Source of the DNA: an uncultured Candidatus Bathyarchaeia archaeon
Lineage (GTDB): Archaea; Thermoproteota; Bathyarchaeia; Bathyarchaeales; Bathyarchaeaceae
Direction: 5' to 3'
Length of the DNA stretch: 64,000 nucleotides
Assembly (NCBI GenBank): GCA_964655075.1
Contig: CAZZLD010000008.1
Coordinates: 380-64,379 of the forward strand
Under the pieces are notes generated by a model. It was not told the origin of the DNA. It worked only from the letters and a program-made list of their open reading frames with translations, and made no database searches. Each line of letters opens with the position of its first letter. The first letter of the stretch is position 1. Below, piece by piece: positions 56,396-64,000 of this stretch. The position numbers were made by a program, and so were the translations under genes.

Positions 56396-57025
56396 CTAGG
56401 GCGCGCGTTCAGGCACAAACCGCCGGAGAGGGTTTTCCTCGACAACCTTCTGAAGCTGCGCGTAGCTCAAGCCGGTTAAGCGGTCTCCGTATATCTCGCA
56501 TCGCCTAGGCGCGTTCCTTTTTTCAGGGTCCCTGACGACGATTTCCGCCTGATTGTCCGACGGCAGAGCAAGATAAATGTGGAAGGAGGTTTCCAGTTTG
56601 CCTTTTTTTGTCACCGTCATCTGTTCGCTTCTTTCAACGCTGAAACCGTTTCTCTCCAGTTGAGTGACTGCAGCTTGCGGGTTTAAAGCGAAAATTTCTA
56701 TGTCTATGTCGCTGTTATGGTGGGCGGTTCCGCGCCAGACGCTTCCAACAAGCCTAGGGTAGAAATCCTTCAAAACCGCCATTATTGTTAGAGCTTCTCT
56801 CCGCATCTGCAAAAGCCGTTCCCTTCTTGGCGTTCCCTCCTCTTCGTCGGAGATTCTGTCCAGCGCGTTCGCCACTTCGAAGTTGCTTGGAAGAATTCGG
56901 GCGCCGAGGGCCTCAGCAGCCCTTCTTTTAGCCTGTCGGTATTCCTTCTCCTGCGACGTGTAGAGGAGCATGGCGGCTTCTCGGGCGACTTTTTCCCTTA
57001 ACTGCGTTAAACGTTTTTCCTTCAA
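56396..57025 (-). CDS. Pol-beta-superfamily nucleotidyltransferase
   Basis: GSVWRGTAHHNSDIDIEIF (G[SG]...DxD) motif. Confidence 0.65.
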   Translation of the reverse strand: MKEKRLTQLREKVAREAAMLLYTSQEKEYRQAKRRAAEALGARILPSNFEVANALDRISDEEEGTPRRERLLQMRREALTIMAVLKDFYPRLVGSVWRGTAHHNSDIDIEIFALNPQAAVTQLERNGFSVERSEQMTVTKKGKLETSFHIYLALPSDNQAEIVVRDPEKRNAPRRCEIYGDRLTGLSYAQLQKVVEENPLRRFVPERAP

Positions 57026-57702: not shown

Positions 57703-57772
57703 GGTAAACCTCCATGTTAACTGAGAACAGTTACAAACGAGTATTAAAAGCTTAACGCTTTATTACTGCGCG

Positions 57773-58327
57773 CTAATTATCAGGAGTTTGGGGGAAGGGA
57801 TAAAAATCTTGCTGAACCTTTCGATATGAGGTCCCCTTAAAATCCAAATCATAAGCGCTCATAATTATTTCTTTACGTTCATAATTGTATCTTAAGAAGA
57901 TGACTAGATACTTCTCATTTGGGAACATCAGCACTTGTTTGTTCAAGATATCTCTCATCTCTTCTAGCATATCAGATTCATTAGCATTCGGTCTGAGATG
58001 AAATAATCCAACCTTCAAAAGCGCTTTAATATCCACCAGTTTTTCAAAATCTTCCAATATATCTTTCTTGTTCTTTGATAGTTCAGACTCCATAGCCAAC
58101 CCCAGATGTCGGCTTGGCTTATCACATCGCCACACAATATCAACTAGATACTCTTTCTCGTTTTTGCTTGTATAAAGGGAATGAAATGTCTCCTCCTCAC
58201 CCAGTTTTCCAAAGTATTCCTTTACTTTAAAGGTCCAATCCTTAAGACTTCGTTCCCAAGCGAGTCCAGACTCGTTAAGTAACCAATTTCTGAACTTATG
58301 ACATATGTAATCCGGTCTTAAGGACAC
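57773..58327 (-). CDS. hypothetical protein, possible PD-(D/E)xK-fold nuclease
   Basis: 184 aa. EYLVDIVW ... LGLAMESELSKNKK resembles a D...E-x-E...K restriction-endonuclease-like core. Weak. Confidence 0.3.
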   Translation of the reverse strand: MSLRPDYICHKFRNWLLNESGLAWERSLKDWTFKVKEYFGKLGEEETFHSLYTSKNEKEYLVDIVWRCDKPSRHLGLAMESELSKNKKDILEDFEKLVDIKALLKVGLFHLRPNANESDMLEEMRDILNKQVLMFPNEKYLVIFLRYNYERKEIIMSAYDLDFKGTSYRKVQQDFYPFPQTPDN

Positions 58328-58333
58328 ACCAGT

Positions 58334-58828
58334 TCACCTTTCGTCCGAAACTAGATAAGAAAAGAAGCCAAGAGCAAAAAGGAGGAACAGAACACCAAGT
58401 ATTTGATTTCCCTTATCTTTTTCCGATTTAAGCCTTAATGAGAGCCTTCTAATTTGCTCTAAAACCAAGTTTGGCTTGTCTCTGTCTAAGACAACATAAG
58501 GCAAGTCGTTAATATCTTCAGGTATCTGAATCTCAGGCTCAACAATAAGGATAATAGGTTTCGCAAAAGCCTTAGCCATACCGATTTCGAAAAAAACATT
58601 CGCTGATTCGATACTATTCTCTGTCAAAAGAACGATTACATAATCCGAAGCGTGGATGTGGTCTTTGACATTTTCAGACAGAGGTTTTGTTCTTAGGTCT
58701 CTTACAGAAGTAGTTTCAAAAGTGTAAATGTTAACCCCGCTTTGTTTAAGAATACTGTATAATGAATTTACAGTCTGTTCATCTTTTGGTGAGTAACTAA
58801 TGTATACCGTAAAAGCCAATTCCATCAC
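58334..58828 (-). CDS. TIR-like domain protein with C-terminal transmembrane anchor
   Basis: FTVYISYSPKDE, SDYVIVLLTENSIESANVFFEIGMAKAFAKPIILIV, IPEDINDLPYVVL. C-terminal helix ILGVLFLLFALGFFSYLV. Confidence 0.6.
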   Translation of the reverse strand: MMELAFTVYISYSPKDEQTVNSLYSILKQSGVNIYTFETTSVRDLRTKPLSENVKDHIHASDYVIVLLTENSIESANVFFEIGMAKAFAKPIILIVEPEIQIPEDINDLPYVVLDRDKPNLVLEQIRRLSLRLKSEKDKGNQILGVLFLLFALGFFSYLVSDER

Positions 58829-58904
58829 TACCTCTTTTTCAATTCTATCACTCTAAAAATGTTGTGCCTGTGCCTAAAAAAGGATTACGTGCGTAACGAT
58901 TAGG

Positions 58905-59501
58905 TTATGATTTTCTGAACTCGGATAATGCTTTTTGTAATCTCATTGCTGTATTAAAACTTAGTTCGTCACCTTTGTATTCGCATCGATAAAGACCTTG
59001 CAGGTTAGAAGGCAGTTCAACTTTATTGTCAACCAGCAAAATTACTTTTTTGTTGTATGTAAGAAAAGCTGCACCAATTTCTATTAGAACATTTTGATTT
59101 ATTCCATAAGTCCCGTCTTCTCTTTTTTCTTGCTCGTCTGCGCTTACGTTAATTATTGAACAGTCACATTCTCTCATTATGCCAAACACTTTTTCAGGAA
59201 TAGGAATTGCCGTAGTTTCTCTTTCCTCAGCAATGACATATTCAAACTGCCCAAAATTCAAAATCTGCTTAATTGGATTAACTATTTTCTTATTCTTACT
59301 ATGAGAAATGAAAACTCGAGGTTTTTTGATTCCTTCTTCTACCACTTCTTCTTTCTCTTCTGTTTCCTCAATCTCTCCTTCAGCTTCTGCTTCCTCTTCC
59401 ATTTTTAGGTTCAAATCCCTTCCACGGTGCCAAACGACGTTTAAATCCTTGTTGCGCGCGCGAAGTTCCTTCCATAAATCATAAAAACTGAAAGACGACA
59501 T
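58905..59501 (-). CDS. CAP12/Pycsar-effector-type TIR-like domain protein with acidic N-terminal extension
   Basis: RVFISHS..., CDCSIINVSADE...INQNVLIEIGAAFLTYNKKVILLV, VELPSNLQGLYRCEY match the TIR-like (COG4271-type) pattern. The N-terminus carries an EEEAEAEGEIEETEEKEEVVEE run. Confidence 0.7.
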   Translation of the reverse strand: MSSFSFYDLWKELRARNKDLNVVWHRGRDLNLKMEEEAEAEGEIEETEEKEEVVEEGIKKPRVFISHSKNKKIVNPIKQILNFGQFEYVIAEERETTAIPIPEKVFGIMRECDCSIINVSADEQEKREDGTYGINQNVLIEIGAAFLTYNKKVILLVDNKVELPSNLQGLYRCEYKGDELSFNTAMRLQKALSEFRKS

Positions 59502-59535
59502 AGCTTAAGATAAAGCAATTATTTGTGATTGTAGA

Positions 59536-59994
59536 ATGACTCAGAATGGGAAGGATTACTCAGACTACATGAAATTTCTGTCAAACTTGGCGAGTGGACA
59601 AGCTTTCCTTGCAGGGTTCACATTTACAGTCATAGTCTTACTTCTTACGCGGCTTCCAGACCCAAGCAGCATCTCCTCACAGCTCGTACTGTTCTTCTTG
59701 ACAGTCATGTTCGGTCTGTTCATGTTCTTATGGACTTCTCTTAACGTAGAACTATTATATTCCGTTAAAAACATTCCCAAATCAACAAAGCGAATGGATT
59801 TGTTAAGGGTGCTAGTGGTCATTGCTGATATGATGTCTGGTGCCTCGGTAATGTTGATCTTTCTTCTCTGGAATCTCATCTATCTCTTTTCAGCATCTCT
59901 GGCTATGTACGCAATAATCATCATCGTAGATATCTTCGGAATAGTGAAACCATTGCAAGAATATCGTAGAAAAATCTTTCAAAGTGAAGATTAA
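59536..59994 (+). CDS. four-helix transmembrane protein (candidate membrane effector)
   Basis: 152 aa with 4 predicted TM helices. Divergently transcribed, 34 bp from the TIR-like operon. Confidence 0.5.
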   Translation: MTQNGKDYSDYMKFLSNLASGQAFLAGFTFTVIVLLLTRLPDPSSISSQLVLFFLTVMFGLFMFLWTSLNVELLYSVKNIPKSTKRMDLLRVLVVIADMMSGASVMLIFLLWNLIYLFSASLAMYAIIIIVDIFGIVKPLQEYRRKIFQSED

Positions 59995-60038
59995 AACCTG
60001 CGCACTGTTGGTTTATGTTCAACCGCACTCTTTCGGTG

Positions 60039-60614
60039 CTATTTGAATCTCGAAACGAACTTATTGCCCTTAATATAAAATCTCAGTAATTTGCTCTTGC
60101 CTTTTGAGATGCCTATTCTGGTTGACTTTGCAACGTCTACTCTCTCATCGGAGTCTTCTACGAATAGTTCATCTCCTGTCAGGTCTAGTCCATTGTGTCT
60201 TTCGTCTATTCCAAATGCCTTTGTTAGCTTTCCCGGTCCATTCGTGAGATTCTTTCCATTGTCGATGCCTCTGTTCTTTTTCATGATTTCTATTCCTTCC
60301 AGAGGCTCTAAAGCCCTTATCAACACGGCTCCCAGTTTTCCTGTTTTTGCATTTACGTTTAACATCCAATGGTTTCCGTAAGTGAAATAAACAAATGTGT
60401 ATCCAGCTGGCATTAACAATGCTTGAGGAATGCTTTTTACTCTTCTAAATCCGATAGCGCCAGGATCATCAAGTCCTAGGTATGCTTCTACTTCGACTAT
60501 TTTTCCCTTCAAAGTTCCTCCTTCAGTCTTGTGAACAAGAATTTTCCCTAGAATTTCTCTGGCGACTTTTTTCGTATCCTTAGAGTAGAATTCCCTTGGG
60601 AGCTTCATAAACAA
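60039..60614 (-). CDS. mpg: 3-methyladenine DNA glycosylase (AAG/Mpg family)
   Basis: VAREILGKILVH...GKIVEVEAYLG, YFTYGNHWMLNV, AVLIRALEPLEG, GPGKLTKAFGI. Confidence 0.8.
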   Translation of the reverse strand: MFMKLPREFYSKDTKKVAREILGKILVHKTEGGTLKGKIVEVEAYLGLDDPGAIGFRRVKSIPQALLMPAGYTFVYFTYGNHWMLNVNAKTGKLGAVLIRALEPLEGIEIMKKNRGIDNGKNLTNGPGKLTKAFGIDERHNGLDLTGDELFVEDSDERVDVAKSTRIGISKGKSKLLRFYIKGNKFVSRFK

Positions 60615-60793
60615 AGTTCATCCCTGTTGCTTAAGTCTTTTTGCACCGCCAACTGATTGCCATAACGCATATAACCAAGGTCTTCACCTCTCCAACGGCT
60701 CTTGAAGACTCACAGAATATGTCGCGTGTCCTTCAGTCTCTCTGTTAGCAGAACCAAACGCGCGCATGTAGGGTATAAATTATATGCCCCCCC

Positions 60794-60861
60794 AGCGGCA
60801 CTGCGTGCCGCTACCTCTGACACGCTGCCTTCGGCAGCGGATCAAAGCGTGCTAACGCACG
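60794..60861. other. three tandem GC-rich hairpins (candidate structured RNA, att/ori-type site)
   Basis: AGCGGCAC-TGC-GTGCCGCT (60794-60812), CGCTGCC-TTC-GGCAGCG (60823-60839), CGTGC-TAAC-GCACG (60848-60861). Preceded by TATAAATTATAT and a C7 run, followed by (CGGTTAA)x2. Confidence 0.5.
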
Positions 60862-61045
60862 AGCAGAAATAAGGCTGAAAAGAGGCACGGTTAACGGTTA
60901 ACGATACTTATTACTATTCTTAGCTATTAAGAGCAATAGCAGAAGAGGGAAGCAGAAGACAGGCTTCTGAAAACCTATTATTCATCGGGGCTAAGGCGAG
61001 TGGTTTTAGTAAAACTCTTATACACAGATTCAGTTAACTGTACTT

Positions 61046-61492
61046 ATGCCAAAACCATCTAGTCTAAGAAGGAAGTACAAGGTAATGCCCAAAGCCCTTC
61101 AAATTGAGAATTTCAAGAGATTGTTTCTGAGAGCAAATGATGATTATGATGACCCTGATGCTGAGATGGCCAACATAGATTTTGAAAATGCTGTAGAAGA
61201 TGACCTTAGTTTTCGGGAAAACTTGCGTAATTTTGAAGAGCAGTATCCGCAGTATCGTTGGAAAGTTCCTAAAAAAAATCCCTTAGGAGAAGAACGCCCT
61301 GTATGGAAATCAAAGTTCGATTTAGAAGGCAATACTGTCGCTTACACAGCAATAGTTTTAGTAAAACCACACAGAGTTACAGCAAAAAACAGAACTTACC
61401 TGCACGGAAGGATTCAAGCTACGGTTGACAGAAAATGGATAGGATGTAAGGCTAAGGTCTCAATACAAGTTCCTGTCGGGAAACGTGGGTAA
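61046..61492 (+). CDS. hypothetical protein with C-terminal AbrB/DUF2080-like swapped-hairpin domain
   Basis: C-terminus LHGRIQATVDRKWIGCKAKVSIQV resembles DUF2080 (putative transposon-encoded) / AbrB-like domains. Confidence 0.4.
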   Translation: MPKPSSLRRKYKVMPKALQIENFKRLFLRANDDYDDPDAEMANIDFENAVEDDLSFRENLRNFEEQYPQYRWKVPKKNPLGEERPVWKSKFDLEGNTVAYTAIVLVKPHRVTAKNRTYLHGRIQATVDRKWIGCKAKVSIQVPVGKRG

Positions 61493-61764
61493 ACTGCTAC
61501 GTAGTAGTTATGCGACAATTCATTTGATATTTAGCTTCTGAATTTCAGTTATAAAAGCGGAATCAGTGGAAATACTAAAAGTGAATAGAGGCAGAATAAA
61601 GCGGGAAACTTATATAGGTCTTATATAAGGTCTTGATTCGAAAAAGGAGCCTTAATCGGGCTTACTTCACGGAAACCTTTAAATAGAGCGAGTATTATTA
61701 TTAAAGCGTAAATCGAAAATCGTAAAACGTTGTAGGAAAACCAGAGATTTTTGAGGGAAATAAA

Positions 61765-61977
61765 TTGCCTAGATCACTCTCTAAACGTAAGAAAGAACAG
61801 CTCTGGATAAAGTGCCCCAGATGCAGATACAGATGGAGTCCAGACCCCAGAAAATGGAGAAACTGGAATCTAACGTACAATCACGAAAAGGTATTGACCT
61901 GTCCTTCTTGCAGTGCGAGAGTAAAAGTATCGGCTAATGTCGTAAGGCAAACACTCAAGCACAGAGGAATGCTCTAA
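61765..61977 (+). CDS. zinc-ribbon protein
   Basis: CPRCRYRW ... CPSCSARV. TAATG overlap with the next gene. Confidence 0.5.
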   Translation: MPRSLSKRKKEQLWIKCPRCRYRWSPDPRKWRNWNLTYNHEKVLTCPSCSARVKVSANVVRQTLKHRGML

Positions 61978-62483
61978 TGGACATGATAGGGTTCAAGGCT
62001 CCTCCTTCTTGGAAAGAACTGGTAAAGAAACTAGCGCAAGAGAAGGGATTGAGGGAATCTGAAGTTGCGAGAATGATATTCGGAACAGGCTTGAAACATA
62101 GATCTGAAGTAAACGGAAAATTGCACGAATTAGCAGAAGAAGGAGAAATCGTCATGAAAGGAAAGAGAGCTTTGGCGTTAAGAAAGACGATAGGACATTT
62201 CGGCGGTCATCAATCAGGATGGAGAGAAGCAGCCGAAAGAATAGAGAATCCTATTGTTCAACGTGCATATATAGAGATTACCGAAAATGTGCAGAGAGAC
62301 GTTATGGAATACTTGAAAAAGAGAAAGAAAACAAAGGGCAGAAGAACCCTCTTGGAATGGCTGTGGGATACTAGATGTCAAGGATGTCAATATCAAATAA
62401 ATAGAAACAAGGACTTTTGCGAGAAGTATTGCAAGGTGTATAAGCGGATAAAAGAGGGATTCAAACGCGGTAGAAAAAGGTAG
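61977..62483 (+). CDS. RHH-like DNA-binding protein with basic Cys-containing C-terminus
   Basis: IGFKAPPSWKELVKKLAQEKGLRESEVARMIF (strand-helix-helix). Confidence 0.45.
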   Translation: MDMIGFKAPPSWKELVKKLAQEKGLRESEVARMIFGTGLKHRSEVNGKLHELAEEGEIVMKGKRALALRKTIGHFGGHQSGWREAAERIENPIVQRAYIEITENVQRDVMEYLKKRKKTKGRRTLLEWLWDTRCQGCQYQINRNKDFCEKYCKVYKRIKEGFKRGRKR

Positions 62484-62498
62484 AAGAGGTGATAAAAC

Positions 62499-62873
62499 GT
62501 GACAAGTAGAGATGATGGGATAAGAGAAGTACTGAGACGAAAGAAACCAAGGATTCCAGCTAGTAGAAGGCTAGAGAAAGAGAGGATTATGAGGAGCTAT
62601 CGAGAGCCTGTATCGTTCAAGTTCTACGGAACTTACAAAGACGGCATAGAAAGGAAACACTTTGAGTTCTCTGTGGTTGTACCTCGTACTATGAAGAGAA
62701 GGGTAATGTACTTCTGGGTAAAGCGGACTGTAAGAGACATGAAATGGGAAGACGAACTTCCTGAAGGACACTATTATCACACCTATCGAGGATTCTTGAA
62801 CCTTCACACTCAGACAGACTGGGAAAAAACAGACGGGATAGTGGACTACGACGTCGACCATACAGCTACCTAA
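62499..62873 (+). CDS. hypothetical protein
   Basis: 124-aa ORF co-oriented in the element. No family recognised. Confidence 0.35.
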   Translation: MTSRDDGIREVLRRKKPRIPASRRLEKERIMRSYREPVSFKFYGTYKDGIERKHFEFSVVVPRTMKRRVMYFWVKRTVRDMKWEDELPEGHYYHTYRGFLNLHTQTDWEKTDGIVDYDVDHTAT

Positions 62874-62922
62874 AGGATTTCCTATACTCGGCTATGAAAC
62901 TAACAGGTACTTCCTGTTAGAC

Positions 62923-63333
62923 TTGGACAAGAGGACTAGCCTAAAAGAGGTCAAGAAGACAGCGTTAGAGATAGGCAAGAAATACGGTCTAGGAGATTGC
63001 TTGATAGTCCATAGTTCAGACGATAAACAATTAACGCTAGACCTCAAGCCTCTACAGAATTACAACTTGATATACGGAAAGAGAGTTCCTTTCGAGTTTC
63101 AACAACGGGTTCTAAAAAAGCTTCGGGATTCTGGAATAATAGGCGACGTAAGGTACGTTGAGTTCAGAGAAAAAGAAGGAAGCTCCACTTTGAGGGTTTC
63201 TCCGAAGAACCATCAGAAAGTATGTGGAAAAGTGTGTGGTTACATAAAGATAACTGGGGAAGTCGAAGGGATTATGGAATATTTAAAGTTCCTTCAGATA
63301 GGAAGGAGCATAGAGAAAGAACTCCTCAGGTGA
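62923..63333 (+). CDS. hypothetical protein (frame open upstream to 62842; possible degenerate AEP-like domain)
   Basis: The listed TTG start is preceded in-frame by PKGFPILGYETNRYFLLDLDKRTS with no canonical start codon. Confidence 0.35.
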   Translation: MDKRTSLKEVKKTALEIGKKYGLGDCLIVHSSDDKQLTLDLKPLQNYNLIYGKRVPFEFQQRVLKKLRDSGIIGDVRYVEFREKEGSSTLRVSPKNHQKVCGKVCGYIKITGEVEGIMEYLKFLQIGRSIEKELLR

Positions 63334-63339
63334 TGCTTA

Positions 63340-63960
63340 ATGTTAGACTGTGATCTCAAGATTGCCGAGAAAAGAGGGACTTTAAAAAAGTTAAGAGACA
63401 GCAGAACGGTTGGAGATATATTTCAAGCGTGGAAGCACACAAATCCCAACACTGATTGGCGAACATATTGGGATAGTCAGCTGAAAGCCTGTGTGGATCT
63501 CTACGAAAAATACGATTGGAAGCTATTGTGCATACTGCATGGCTCTAAGATGCCCGTTAAAGGCGTGAGATGGACTCAAAGAGACTTGACTTATGAGAAT
63601 GCATTGATTCTATTTCAGAAGAAAATGAACATAGCGGTAAACTTGAAGAAATCTCGTTTAATCGTCGCTGACTGTGATGACAGAGATATACCTGAAAATA
63701 TGAAGCCGTATTTCTACAAAACAATATCAGTTATCAGCCCTCATGGATACCACCTGTATTTTAACTACGACTTTGAGGTAGACGATGAAACACTGCATGA
63801 ACTATGCATGACATTCAACAAGCCGAACTTGTTCAGAGGAGGAAAGAATGCGCCTCAATATGTCCTAGTGCCGTTAAGCTGTGCAGATAAAAAATACTAT
63901 GAGTTCATCAACACTTCGAGCTTGATGGATTTCAGCGAGTTTATTGGTGAAATAAGATGA
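63340..63960 (+). CDS. bifunctional primase-polymerase (PrimPol, AEP superfamily) domain protein
   Basis: Motif I LIVADCDD (DxD), motif II SPHGYHLYF. Confidence 0.7.
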   Translation: MLDCDLKIAEKRGTLKKLRDSRTVGDIFQAWKHTNPNTDWRTYWDSQLKACVDLYEKYDWKLLCILHGSKMPVKGVRWTQRDLTYENALILFQKKMNIAVNLKKSRLIVADCDDRDIPENMKPYFYKTISVISPHGYHLYFNYDFEVDDETLHELCMTFNKPNLFRGGKNAPQYVLVPLSCADKKYYEFINTSSLMDFSEFIGEIR

Positions 63961-64000
63961 GAAGATATGAAGTGCTTACTGACAAGCCAGAACACTGCAT
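63957..64000 (+). CDS. start of next element gene (truncated by window end)
   Basis: ATGA overlap with the PrimPol stop. MRRYEVLTDKPEHC... Confidence 0.3.
   Translation, partial: MRRYEVLTDKPEHC

What the first reader, a model, noticed from the sequence alone, without database searches (positions are those of the whole stretch)
57773..59994. Compact TIR-like / TIR-TM / nuclease-like / 4-TM gene cluster with no cyclase or ThsA partner: candidate new archaeal defence system
Directly after rps3ae the sequence becomes visibly A+T-richer, and four tightly packed genes appear. (1) 58905-59501 has the TIR-like pattern of CAP12/Pycsar-effector (COG4271-type) proteins: RVFISHS, NQNVLIEIG with the conserved Glu, and VELPSNLQGLY. 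It also carries an unusual poly-acidic N-terminal extension. (2) 58334-58828 is a paralogous TIR-like domain (VYISYSPKDE, NVFFEIG, IPEDINDLPYV) ending in a transmembrane helix. (3) 57773-58327 has a D...E-x-E...K arrangement compatible with a PD-(D/E)xK nuclease. (4) 59536-59994 is a 4-TM protein transcribed divergently from a 34-bp shared intergenic region. In CBASS and Pycsar, TIR-like effectors sit beside a CD-NTase or PycC cyclase. In Thoeris, one or several TIR genes sit beside a SIR2, Macro or TM-Macro ThsA. None of those partners is present within 5 kb. The layout of duplicated TIR-like genes plus putative nuclease and membrane effectors resembles Thoeris in logic but not in components. 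The cluster lies in an island next to a PrimPol mobile element, a typical defence-island context.
Basis: partly seen in the sequence, partly recalled or inferred. Interest (0 to 1): 0.8.

Follow-up and report, generated by a model that had tools for sequence, protein, structure and literature searches.

The report
Archaeal membrane-anchored TIR two-gene module
The four genes are real, but only two of them, a membrane-anchored TIR protein and a 180-residue protein of unknown family, form a conserved operon in Bathyarchaeia, probably a new variant of TIR-based antiviral defence. The third gene is a truncated copy of a stand-alone TIR gene and the fourth is an unrelated membrane protein.

Summary
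All four ORFs, the quoted motifs, the 34-bp divergent spacer and the GC drop (0.50 to 0.37) are present. Both TIR calls pass Pfam thresholds.

The "four-gene system" reading does not hold.
- **B and A (58334-58828 and 57773-58327).** In all 11 non-redundant loci that carry a close homologue of A, a B-type TIR gene lies directly upstream on the same strand, from a 17-nt overlap to a 20-nt gap. The flanks differ between loci. Every complete B orthologue keeps the TIR glutamate; every orthologue, including the cut one, keeps the C-terminal membrane anchor.
- **C and D.** Neither occurs at any of those loci.
- **C (58905-59501).** It is a 5'-truncated copy of a ~345-aa single-gene family (DUF7226-like N-domain, acidic linker, CAP12-type TIR). 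Homology stops at about 59406. The "poly-acidic extension" is the family's linker.
- **D (59536-59994).** It is a 4-TM protein whose homologues sit in unrelated contexts.
- **A.** It belongs to a large unannotated superfamily (706 clusters) with invariant D63, E80 and E82. It has no Pfam, PADLOC, PHROG or PDB match and no convincing Foldseek match. The nuclease idea rests only on motif and topology, plus one relative next to a C5 methyltransferase.

Best reading: a Thoeris-like TIR-plus-effector pair, a new variant of a known kind. The mechanism is unproven.

The parts
58334..58828 (-). Gene B: TIR_2/ThsB-like TIR domain (aa 8-117) with a C-terminal tail-anchor TM helix (aa ~143-161). First gene of the conserved B-A operon. 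The true start is probably the ATG at codon 2.
   Evidence: Pfam TIR_2 48.9 bits (cut-off 28), ThsB_TIR 30.2 (21.2); PADLOC ThsB 1.3e-10. Hydropathy. The nine orthologues complete enough to show it, plus the window copy, keep the Glu of N[IV]FFEIG; all of them, and the cut copy in L011, keep the TM tail. The single-sequence AF2 model (pLDDT 70.7) hits SpbK, B. cereus TIR, TIR-STING, MyD88, SARM1 and EcThsB.
57773..58327 (-). Gene A: 184-aa soluble alpha/beta protein of an unannotated superfamily. Invariant D63, E80, E82; near-invariant W66, K96, K101, E138, Y140. Second gene of the operon and putative effector (nuclease-like, inferred).
   Evidence: 20 close homologues. 706 clusters in the representative library. 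Conservation. AF2 pLDDT 82.5, pTM 0.83, with an H-E-E-E-H-E core. No Pfam, NCBIfam, PADLOC, PHROG or PDB-sequence hit. Foldseek gives TM <= 0.43 only.
58328..58333 (-). 6-nt B-stop to A-start junction; tight coupling of the two genes.
   Evidence: Spacing ranges from a 17-nt overlap to a 20-nt gap across the loci.
58829..58904 (-). 76-nt spacer between C and B. Inferred to carry the B-A operon's own promoter (not tested).
   Evidence: Sequence. B-A occurs without C in all other loci.
58905..59501 (-). Gene C: TIR-only, 5'-truncated derivative of a ~345-aa DUF7226-like + CAP12-type TIR single-gene family. Homologous part is 58910-59406; residues 1-32 are unrelated; an internal ATG (M34) lies at the breakpoint.
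   Evidence: Pfam PF10137 at 3.6e-18. Relatives are 76-91% identical over the C-terminal ~70-80% and 340-347 aa long. tblastn finds no N-domain anywhere in the window. DNA homology ends at 59406. dN/dS is 0.026 for the TIR part.
59536..59994 (+). Gene D: small 4-TM membrane protein, not linked to the TIR genes elsewhere.
   Evidence: Hydropathy. 18 homologues besides the window's own sequence (36-53% identity), no Pfam. Contexts are SOUL and an ABC transporter. Absent from all B-A and C-family loci.
57750..60000 (.). AT-rich islet (GC about 0.37) holding A, B, C and D. GC stays low, about 0.39-0.46, through MPG and the PrimPol-side genes to the window end.

Best explanation
The cluster is a small acquired islet holding three unrelated items, not one four-gene system.

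1. **The functional unit is the two-gene operon B-A.** B is a TIR protein tethered to the membrane by a C-terminal tail anchor, with its catalytic glutamate (E81) intact. A is a 180-aa soluble protein with an invariant D...ExE...K constellation on an alpha-beta-beta-beta-alpha-beta core.
   - My preferred mechanism is Thoeris-like. On infection, B turns NAD+ into an ADP-ribose-derived signal, or acts directly on A. This switches on A, which I infer to be a restriction-endonuclease-like nuclease. The result is arrest or death of the infected cell.
   - Shown: the strict B-A operon conservation, the TIR identity, the retained Glu and the TM anchor.
   - Inferred: the defence role, the signalling step and the nuclease activity of A.
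2. **C is a 5'-truncated remnant of a stand-alone TIR defence gene.** That family has a wHTH-like DUF7226 N-domain, an acidic linker and a CAP12-type TIR. C retains only the linker and the TIR. It is probably inert or unregulated, and it is not a conserved partner of B-A.
3. **D is an unrelated small membrane protein gene**, juxtaposed by the rearrangement that removed C's 5' half.
For: **B-A adjacency**
- Adjacency holds in 11 of 11 non-redundant loci carrying a core-family A: the window, L002, L004, L005, L009, L010, L011, L012, L013, L015 and L016.
- The flanks differ between loci: rps3ae, terminase, integrase + DUF4365 + PycTM, AlwI-like REase + PAPS reductase, PCNA, and a second TIR.
- B and A identities co-vary (r = 0.98, 36 pairs).

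**Identity of B**
- TIR identity rests.
- The Glu is conserved in the ten copies that span it, and the TM tail in all eleven.

**Conservation and fold of A**
- D63, E80 and E82 are invariant over 65 diverse members.
- One superfamily member (P0148, E 2.4e-27) lies directly downstream of a C5 DNA methylase fragment, an R-M-like arrangement.
- Other distant members lie beside an NB-ARC STAND NTPase, or beside HNH plus an ADP-ribosylglycohydrolase.

**C and D**
- C truncation.
- C-family members are solo genes beside an integrase or beside Cas1/SIR2_2.
- D is independent.

**Literature**
- TIR plus a variable adjacent effector is the accepted Thoeris pattern, with 29 predicted and 11 verified types (bioRxiv 10.64898/2025.12.03.692087).
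- E. coli two-gene TIR systems need both genes (PMC11350192).
Against: - Most of the wider A superfamily has no TIR neighbour, so A does not intrinsically need a TIR signal.
- A has no recognisable sensor domain such as SLOG, Macro or SAVED.
- None of the Thoeris TIRs I read about in that preprint is described as membrane-anchored, so B could itself be the effector.
- The defence-island context is suggestive but varies. Some loci sit among housekeeping genes (the window, L016).
- The MTase-adjacent case is a single 1.2-kb contig.
- C's ORF is intact and its TIR has been under purifying selection. A residual function for C, for example as an extra TIR, is not excluded.
Confidence: 0.55

Rival explanations
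1. All four genes (two TIRs, a nuclease and a 4-TM protein) form one new Thoeris-like system with duplicated TIR sensors and two effectors.
For: - The four genes are tightly packed in one AT-rich islet.
- Thoeris loci can carry several thsB genes.
Against: - C and D never co-occur with B-A in any other locus.
- C is a truncated fragment of a single-gene family.
- D homologues lie in unrelated contexts.
- C is separated from B by a 76-nt spacer, and D is on the other strand.
Confidence: 0.04
2. B-A is a defence pair with the roles reversed. B is the membrane-tethered NAD+-depleting (or membrane-acting) effector. A is the infection sensor or regulator, for example a DNA-binding, nuclease-fold protein that activates or restrains B by direct contact, with no diffusible signal.
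For: - B's best structural match is SpbK, which I recall as a self-contained NADase effector; I did not read a paper on it here.
- TIRs act as NAD+-depleting effectors in CBASS, Pycsar, pAgo and stand-alone proteins.
- The TM anchor is effector-like.
- A lacks a known ligand-sensor domain.
Against: - A's invariant acidic triad looks catalytic rather than merely sensory.
- B matches PADLOC ThsB profiles better than effector-TIR profiles.
- The single R-M-like context of an A relative points to an active nuclease.
Confidence: 0.25
3. B-A is a selfish toxin-antitoxin or addiction module, or an R-M-derived remnant, with no dedicated antiviral role.
For: - The pair is a compact, translationally coupled operon, found on mobile or variable DNA next to an integrase or a terminase.
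- An A relative lies beside PIN toxin genes.
Against: - No antitoxin-like DNA-binding domain is present.
- Both proteins are well conserved, with catalytic-looking residues.
- In the literature read here, prokaryotic TIR proteins appear overwhelmingly in defence systems.
Confidence: 0.1
4. B is not an NADase but a nucleoside 2-deoxyribosyltransferase/DNPH1-like nucleotide-processing enzyme. The pair has a metabolic or DNA-modification role.
For: - Pfam Nuc_deoxyrib_tr scores 27.4 bits, just under its 28.8 cut-off.
- DNPH1 is the second-best Foldseek hit.
Against: - TIR_2, ThsB_TIR, TIR and CAP12 all pass their cut-offs.
- The gene is patchily distributed and sits in variable regions.
- TIR and NDT folds are related, so cross-hits are expected.
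Confidence: 0.05

Closest known systems
Thoeris (ThsB TIR + variable effector; types I-XI verified and about 18 further predicted configurations; bioRxiv 10.64898/2025.12.03.692087)
   Same: - It is a two-gene operon of a short TIR-only protein with a ThsB-profile match and a conserved Glu, plus one adjacent non-TIR protein.
- It is patchily distributed in variable regions.
   Different: - The partner A matches none of the effector families named in the text I read: SIR2-SLOG, Macro-TM, SLOG, caspase-like, DUF2270, DUF6650, SLATT, CMP hydrolase, TIR, ion channel, HIT hydrolase.
- A has no Pfam domain at all.
- The TIR carries a C-terminal membrane anchor.
- So far the pair is restricted to Bathyarchaeia-type archaea.
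- Neither signal nor defence has been shown.
Stand-alone TIR NADase defence proteins (e.g. B. subtilis SpbK; PADLOC candidate PDC-S35; CAP12/PycTIR-type effector TIRs)
   Same: - C's TIR is of the CAP12/Pycsar-effector type, and its full-length relatives are single genes in defence islands.
- B's model is closest to the SpbK TIR.
   Different: - C has lost its N-terminal domain.
- PDC-S35 profiles match only the TIR half, both in C and in its full-length relatives.
- No SAVED, cNMP or STING sensor and no cyclase partner is present.
Single-domain restriction-endonuclease-fold effectors (NucC of CBASS/type III CRISPR; BamHI-type D...ExE active sites). Recalled from knowledge, not tested.
   Same: - A is small and single-domain.
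- It has an alpha-beta-beta-beta-alpha-beta core, with an acidic D / ExE constellation at the positions expected for PD-(D/E)xK enzymes.
   Different: - No sequence-profile or Foldseek similarity to any such protein was found.
- The Lys of the ExK motif is replaced by Glu.
- Ligand binding is unknown.

Membership tests
Thoeris | ThsB-type TIR-domain protein | tested here: met
   B: Pfam TIR_2 48.9 bits (cut-off 28), ThsB_TIR 30.2 (21.2); PADLOC ThsB 1.3e-10. The fold search hits TIR structures, including EcThsB.
Thoeris | Conserved catalytic glutamate in the TIR | tested here: met
   E81 (NVFFEIG) is conserved in the window copy and all nine orthologues that span it. That this Glu is the catalytic one is inferred from the motif; no structural alignment was made.
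Thoeris | Effector gene conserved next to the TIR gene in one operon | tested here: met
   A follows B in 11 of 11 non-redundant loci, from a 17-nt overlap to a 20-nt gap.
Thoeris | Effector belongs to a described Thoeris effector family or carries a known signal-sensing domain (SLOG, Macro, etc.) | tested here: not met
   A has no Pfam, NCBIfam, PADLOC or PHROG hit. I could not compare A with the 29 effector classes of the 2025 preprint, because the stored copy of Table S1 is truncated.
Thoeris | Infection-triggered production of an ADPR-derived signal that activates the effector; anti-viral protection | not testable with these tools
   Needs biochemistry and infection assays.
CBASS / Pycsar | CD-NTase or PycC cyclase in the operon | tested here: not met
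   There is no such hit in the neighbours. The only NTase-like gene (56396-57025; NTP_transf_2 20.8 bits, below the 21 cut-off) is a small Pol-beta-type protein in the normal-GC flank, and it is absent from all related loci.
CBASS / Pycsar | Effector TIR fused to a cyclic-nucleotide sensor (SAVED, STING, cNMP-binding) | tested here: not met
   C has only a linker and a TIR. Its relatives carry a DUF7226-like N-domain instead.
PADLOC PDC-S35 (single-gene candidate) | Match along the whole profile | tested here: not met
   Only about positions 60-260 of the 231-278-position profiles (the TIR half) match, in C and in the full-length relatives.
DUF7226-like + CAP12-TIR single-gene family (~345 aa) | C-terminal CAP12-type TIR closely related to the family | tested here: met
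   76-91% identity to P0001-P0010 over residues ~59-198.
DUF7226-like + CAP12-TIR single-gene family (~345 aa) | N-terminal ~170-aa domain, fused or as an adjacent ORF | tested here: not met
   It is absent from C and from the whole window. DNA homology stops at 59406. In L031 the N-domain is a separate upstream ORF, but the window has no such ORF.
PD-(D/E)xK nuclease superfamily (for A) | alpha-beta-beta-beta-alpha-beta core with D at the start of beta2 and (D/E)xK on beta3 | tested here: inconclusive
   The AF2 model shows H28-45, E49-52, E64-67, E75-82, H87-98 and E102-110. D63 precedes beta2. E80-x-E82 lies on beta3, with Glu in place of Lys, and K96 and K101 are nearby. This is compatible but not diagnostic.
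PD-(D/E)xK nuclease superfamily (for A) | Profile or structural similarity to a known member | tested here: not met

The most novel reading that the evidence does not exclude
B-A is a previously undescribed, archaea-specific Thoeris type. A tail-anchored TIR makes an NAD+-derived signal at the membrane. That signal activates a new single-domain, restriction-endonuclease-like effector family, the A superfamily of about 700 clusters. The family has no known ligand-binding domain and is used elsewhere in R-M-like or STAND-linked contexts.
Probability: 0.3. Interest if true: 0.65.

Novelty: new variant of a known kind. Interest (0 to 1): 0.45.

Why it matters
- **Defence biology.** Confirmation would add an archaeal, membrane-tethered version to the fast-growing set of TIR signalling systems.
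- **An orphan family.** It would give a first functional handle on a large unannotated protein superfamily: 706 clusters, no Pfam, no solved relative.
- **Defence-island reading.** The locus shows how islets accumulate decayed parts. A truncated TIR gene and an unrelated membrane gene can look like extra components of a system when the sequence is read alone.
- **Limits.** TIR plus a variable effector is already an established and very diverse pattern, and nothing here has been tested experimentally.

Tried and rejected
**Tests of whether the four genes belong together**
- I tested whether the ~180-aa genes that follow C-family TIRs (L028:6057-6599, L031:5711-6250) are A homologues, which would have made A a general TIR partner. 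They are not: hhalign probability is 2% and 0.1%.
- I looked for remnants of C's N-domain in the window and found none.
- I looked for direct repeats bounding the islet and found none convincing.

**Searches for the identity of A**
- Foldseek against PDB and BFVD gave only weak, non-specific hits.
- Profile searches of 65 diverse A members against Pfam, PADLOC, PHROGs and PDB sequences returned only scattered, insignificant single-member hits in the three family libraries and none at all in PDB.
- The longer A-superfamily proteins carry no informative domain fusions.
- The sources name sampled members only "hypothetical protein".

**Searches in annotated and viral collections**
- A and B were not found in IMG/VR. 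The broad alignment could not be used for that scan.
- tblastn of the window's A and three A relatives against annotated plasmids and phages found no match.

**Literature and side questions**
- I tried to check A against the effector list of the 2025 Thoeris survey. The stored supplement is truncated and carries no nuclease labels.
- "PDC-S35" does not occur in the literature library.
- The hairpin cluster at 60794-60862 has no tRNA, Rfam or viral-contig match.
Full report
**1. The observation**

The four ORFs lie exactly where stated, and their translations contain every quoted motif. C starts at 59501 and D at 59536, so they are divergent with a 34-bp spacer.

GC drops from about 0.50 to 0.35-0.39 at about 57750. 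The 58-60 kb block is the most AT-rich 2-kb block of the window, at 0.374.

The domain calls are as follows.
- C matches Pfam CAP12-PCTIR_TIR at E 3.6e-18, 66.1 bits against a cut-off of 24.7.
- B matches TIR_2 at 48.9 bits against 28, and also passes ThsB_TIR, TIR and CAP12.
- In PADLOC, B hits ThsB profiles (1.3e-10). C hits the single-gene candidate PDC-S35 (2.2e-11) and CBASS TIR effectors.
- A and D have no hit in Pfam, PADLOC, NCBIfam or PHROGs.
- B has one C-terminal hydrophobic helix (143-161) and D has four.
- The next gene, 60039-60614, is a 3-methyladenine DNA glycosylase, and 63340-63960 is a PrimPol.

No cyclase, SIR2, Macro or SLOG gene is nearby.

**2. Which genes belong together**

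A has 20 close homologues, the named ones from Bathyarchaeota MAGs. I fetched their contigs by exact look-up and by genome and metagenome scans. I then searched all ORFs of all loci with the four window proteins.

The results were:
- In every locus with a core-family A, a B-type TIR gene of about 160 aa lies immediately upstream on the same strand. The spacing ranges from a 17-nt overlap to a 20-nt gap. The loci are the window, L002, L004, L005, L009, L010, L012, L013, L015 and L016.
- In L011 the contig cuts B, but B's TM tail is still readable. That makes 11 of 11.
- The flanks all differ: a terminase region (L002); a second TIR and a histidine kinase (L004); integrase, DUF4365 and PycTM (L005); an AlwI-like REase and a PAPS reductase (L009); PCNA (L016).
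- B and A identities co-vary (r = 0.98).
- C- and D-type genes are absent from all these loci. They accompany B-A only in L001, which is a 100% identical second assembly of the same population.

A two-gene B-A module takes its place.

**3. Gene B**

The window copy and the nine orthologues that span it keep the glutamate of the N[IV]FFEIG motif (E81). All of them, and the cut copy in L011, keep a basic stretch followed by an 18-20-residue hydrophobic tail and a short acidic end. This is a tail-anchored TIR.

A single-sequence AF2 model (pLDDT 70.7) finds TIR structures first: the SpbK filament, B. cereus TIR, TIR-STING, MyD88, SARM1 and EcThsB. It also finds the related DNPH1/NDT fold.

**4. 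Gene A**

A profile search of 1.84 billion representatives finds 706 clusters at E <= 1e-3. Almost all are single-domain proteins of 160-200 aa. Over 65 diverse members, D63, E80 and E82 are invariant. W66, K96, L97, K101, E138 and Y140 are nearly so.

The AF2 model (pLDDT 82.5, pTM 0.83) has a helix, three strands, a helix and a strand as its core. D63 sits at the start of strand 2, and E80-x-E82 on strand 3. This layout is compatible with a PD-(D/E)xK nuclease in which Glu replaces the Lys. I recall this for BamHI from general knowledge and did not test it.

Nothing confirms that reading:
- No Pfam, PADLOC or PHROG family and no PDB sequence matches any of the 65 members meaningfully.
- Foldseek gives only nitrilase and ACC-central hits at TM ~0.4 in PDB, and nothing below E 1e-3 in BFVD.

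Contexts of more distant members are mixed but typical of defence or mobile DNA:
- One lies directly downstream of a C5 DNA methylase fragment, which looks R-M-like.
- One lies downstream of an NB-ARC STAND NTPase.
- One lies between an HNH gene and an ADP-ribosylglycohydrolase.
- One lies beside PIN genes.

None of these distant members has a TIR neighbour. So the TIR link is specific to the Bathyarchaeia branch.

**5. Gene C**

Its closest relatives are 76-91% identical, but only over the C-terminal ~70-80% of C. They are 340-347 aa long, with an N-terminal DUF7226-like domain, an acidic linker and the TIR.

- C's residues 1-32 are unrelated to the family.
- The "unusual poly-acidic extension" is the family's linker.
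- tblastn finds no N-domain anywhere in the window.
- DNA homology to the nearest relative runs from 58910 to 59406 and stops there. That point sits next to an internal ATG (M34).
- The TIR part shows dN/dS of 0.026 against that relative. This shows past constraint, not present function.

Full-length relatives are solo genes, next to an integrase or next to Cas1 and SIR2_2. In one genome the family is split into two overlapping ORFs.

PDC-S35 profiles match only the TIR half. C is therefore a truncated TIR-only derivative, and it is not a conserved partner of B-A. B and C are only distant homologues, with 27% identity over 114 aa.

**6. Gene D**

D has 18 homologues besides the window's own sequence (36-53% identity, about 160 aa) and no Pfam hit. 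The two contexts I could read have a SOUL-domain gene and an ABC transporter, with no TIR. D is an unrelated small membrane protein.

**7. Mechanism**

The literature now treats a TIR gene with a conserved adjacent non-TIR gene as a putative Thoeris system. There are 29 predicted effector classes, including DNases, TM proteins and DUFs, and 11 verified types. Stand-alone TIRs are set aside as likely NAD+-depleting effectors (10.64898/2025.12.03.692087). E. coli two-gene TIR systems need both genes (PMC11350192).

On that basis I favour this model: B senses infection and activates A, through an ADPR-derived signal or by contact, and A acts as a nuclease-like effector.

The main rival reverses the roles. 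B would be a membrane-tethered NADase effector, and A its sensor or regulator. The sequence data do not separate the two.

My confidence levels are:

| Claim | Confidence |
|---|---|
| The cluster decomposes as described | high, ~0.9 |
| B-A has a defence role | moderate, ~0.6 |
| The signalling mechanism is as proposed | low, ~0.35 |

**8. Comparison and novelty**

B-A meets the structural criteria of Thoeris: a TIR with a conserved Glu, and a conserved adjacent partner. It fails the criterion of a known effector or sensor domain, and it has an unusual TM-anchored TIR. CBASS and Pycsar membership fails because there is no cyclase and no sensor-fused effector.

I file it as a new variant of a known kind. 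It is interesting mainly for three reasons: its restriction so far to archaea, the membrane anchor, and the large orphan A superfamily. The original "four-component new system" claim should be dropped.

Noticed in passing
window 60770-60900 (hairpins at 60794-60862): Three consecutive GC-rich hairpins (one with a UUCG loop) sit in an AT-rich intergenic region, preceded by a TATA-like GGGTATAAATTATATG. The RNA fold z-score is -3.5. There is no tRNA, Rfam or viral-contig match. An independent Logan assembly of the same population ends exactly inside it, at window 60818. It may be a small structured RNA, or the border or attachment site of the PrimPol-side element.
   Followed up: partly
window 56396-57025 (-): A 209-aa protein one gene beyond rps3ae has a weak Pol-beta-type nucleotidyltransferase signature (GS...DIDIE; NTP_transf_2 20.8 bits against a 21 cut-off; DUF4269 4e-4). 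It is not a CD-NTase, it lies in the normal-GC part, and it is absent from all related loci. It is worth knowing, given the "no cyclase nearby" claim.
   Followed up: partly
window 60039-64000: The 3-methyladenine DNA glycosylase gene (60039-60614) and the tightly packed small +strand ORFs up to the PrimPol (61046-63960) also lie in low-GC DNA, about 0.39-0.46. No integrase or tRNA is in the window, and the element probably runs off the contig end. PHROG hits are only marginal.
   Followed up: partly
L031 4501-6250: In one 232-kb contig the C-type family is split into two ORFs overlapping by 4 nt: a 167-aa N-domain, 39% identical to the P0003 N-terminus, and a 194-aa TIR. They are followed by a 179-aa protein with a weak Halo_RE (restriction-endonuclease-like) hit. 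This is a second example of a TIR next to a small nuclease-fold gene, unrelated to A.
   Followed up: partly
L038 2-1152; L025 1911-4089; L024 1624-5483: Distant A-superfamily members sit next to a C5 DNA methylase fragment (R-M-like), between an HNH gene and an ADP-ribosylglycohydrolase, and downstream of an 868-aa NB-ARC/NACHT STAND NTPase. This suggests the orphan family is a recurrent defence or mobile-element component.
   Followed up: partly
L004 6791-7627; L002 8365-9657: In one Bathyarchaeota MAG the B-A pair is followed by a further, longer TIR_2 protein of 278 aa. In another contig it lies about 1.8 kb from a terminase large-subunit gene, and so possibly inside a provirus.
   Followed up: no
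L028-L030 6768-7499: The full-length C-family gene P0003 is accompanied, two genes downstream, by a second CAP12-type TIR protein (243 aa) with a weak DnaJ-type zinc-finger hit. Both lie next to a phage-type integrase.
   Followed up: no
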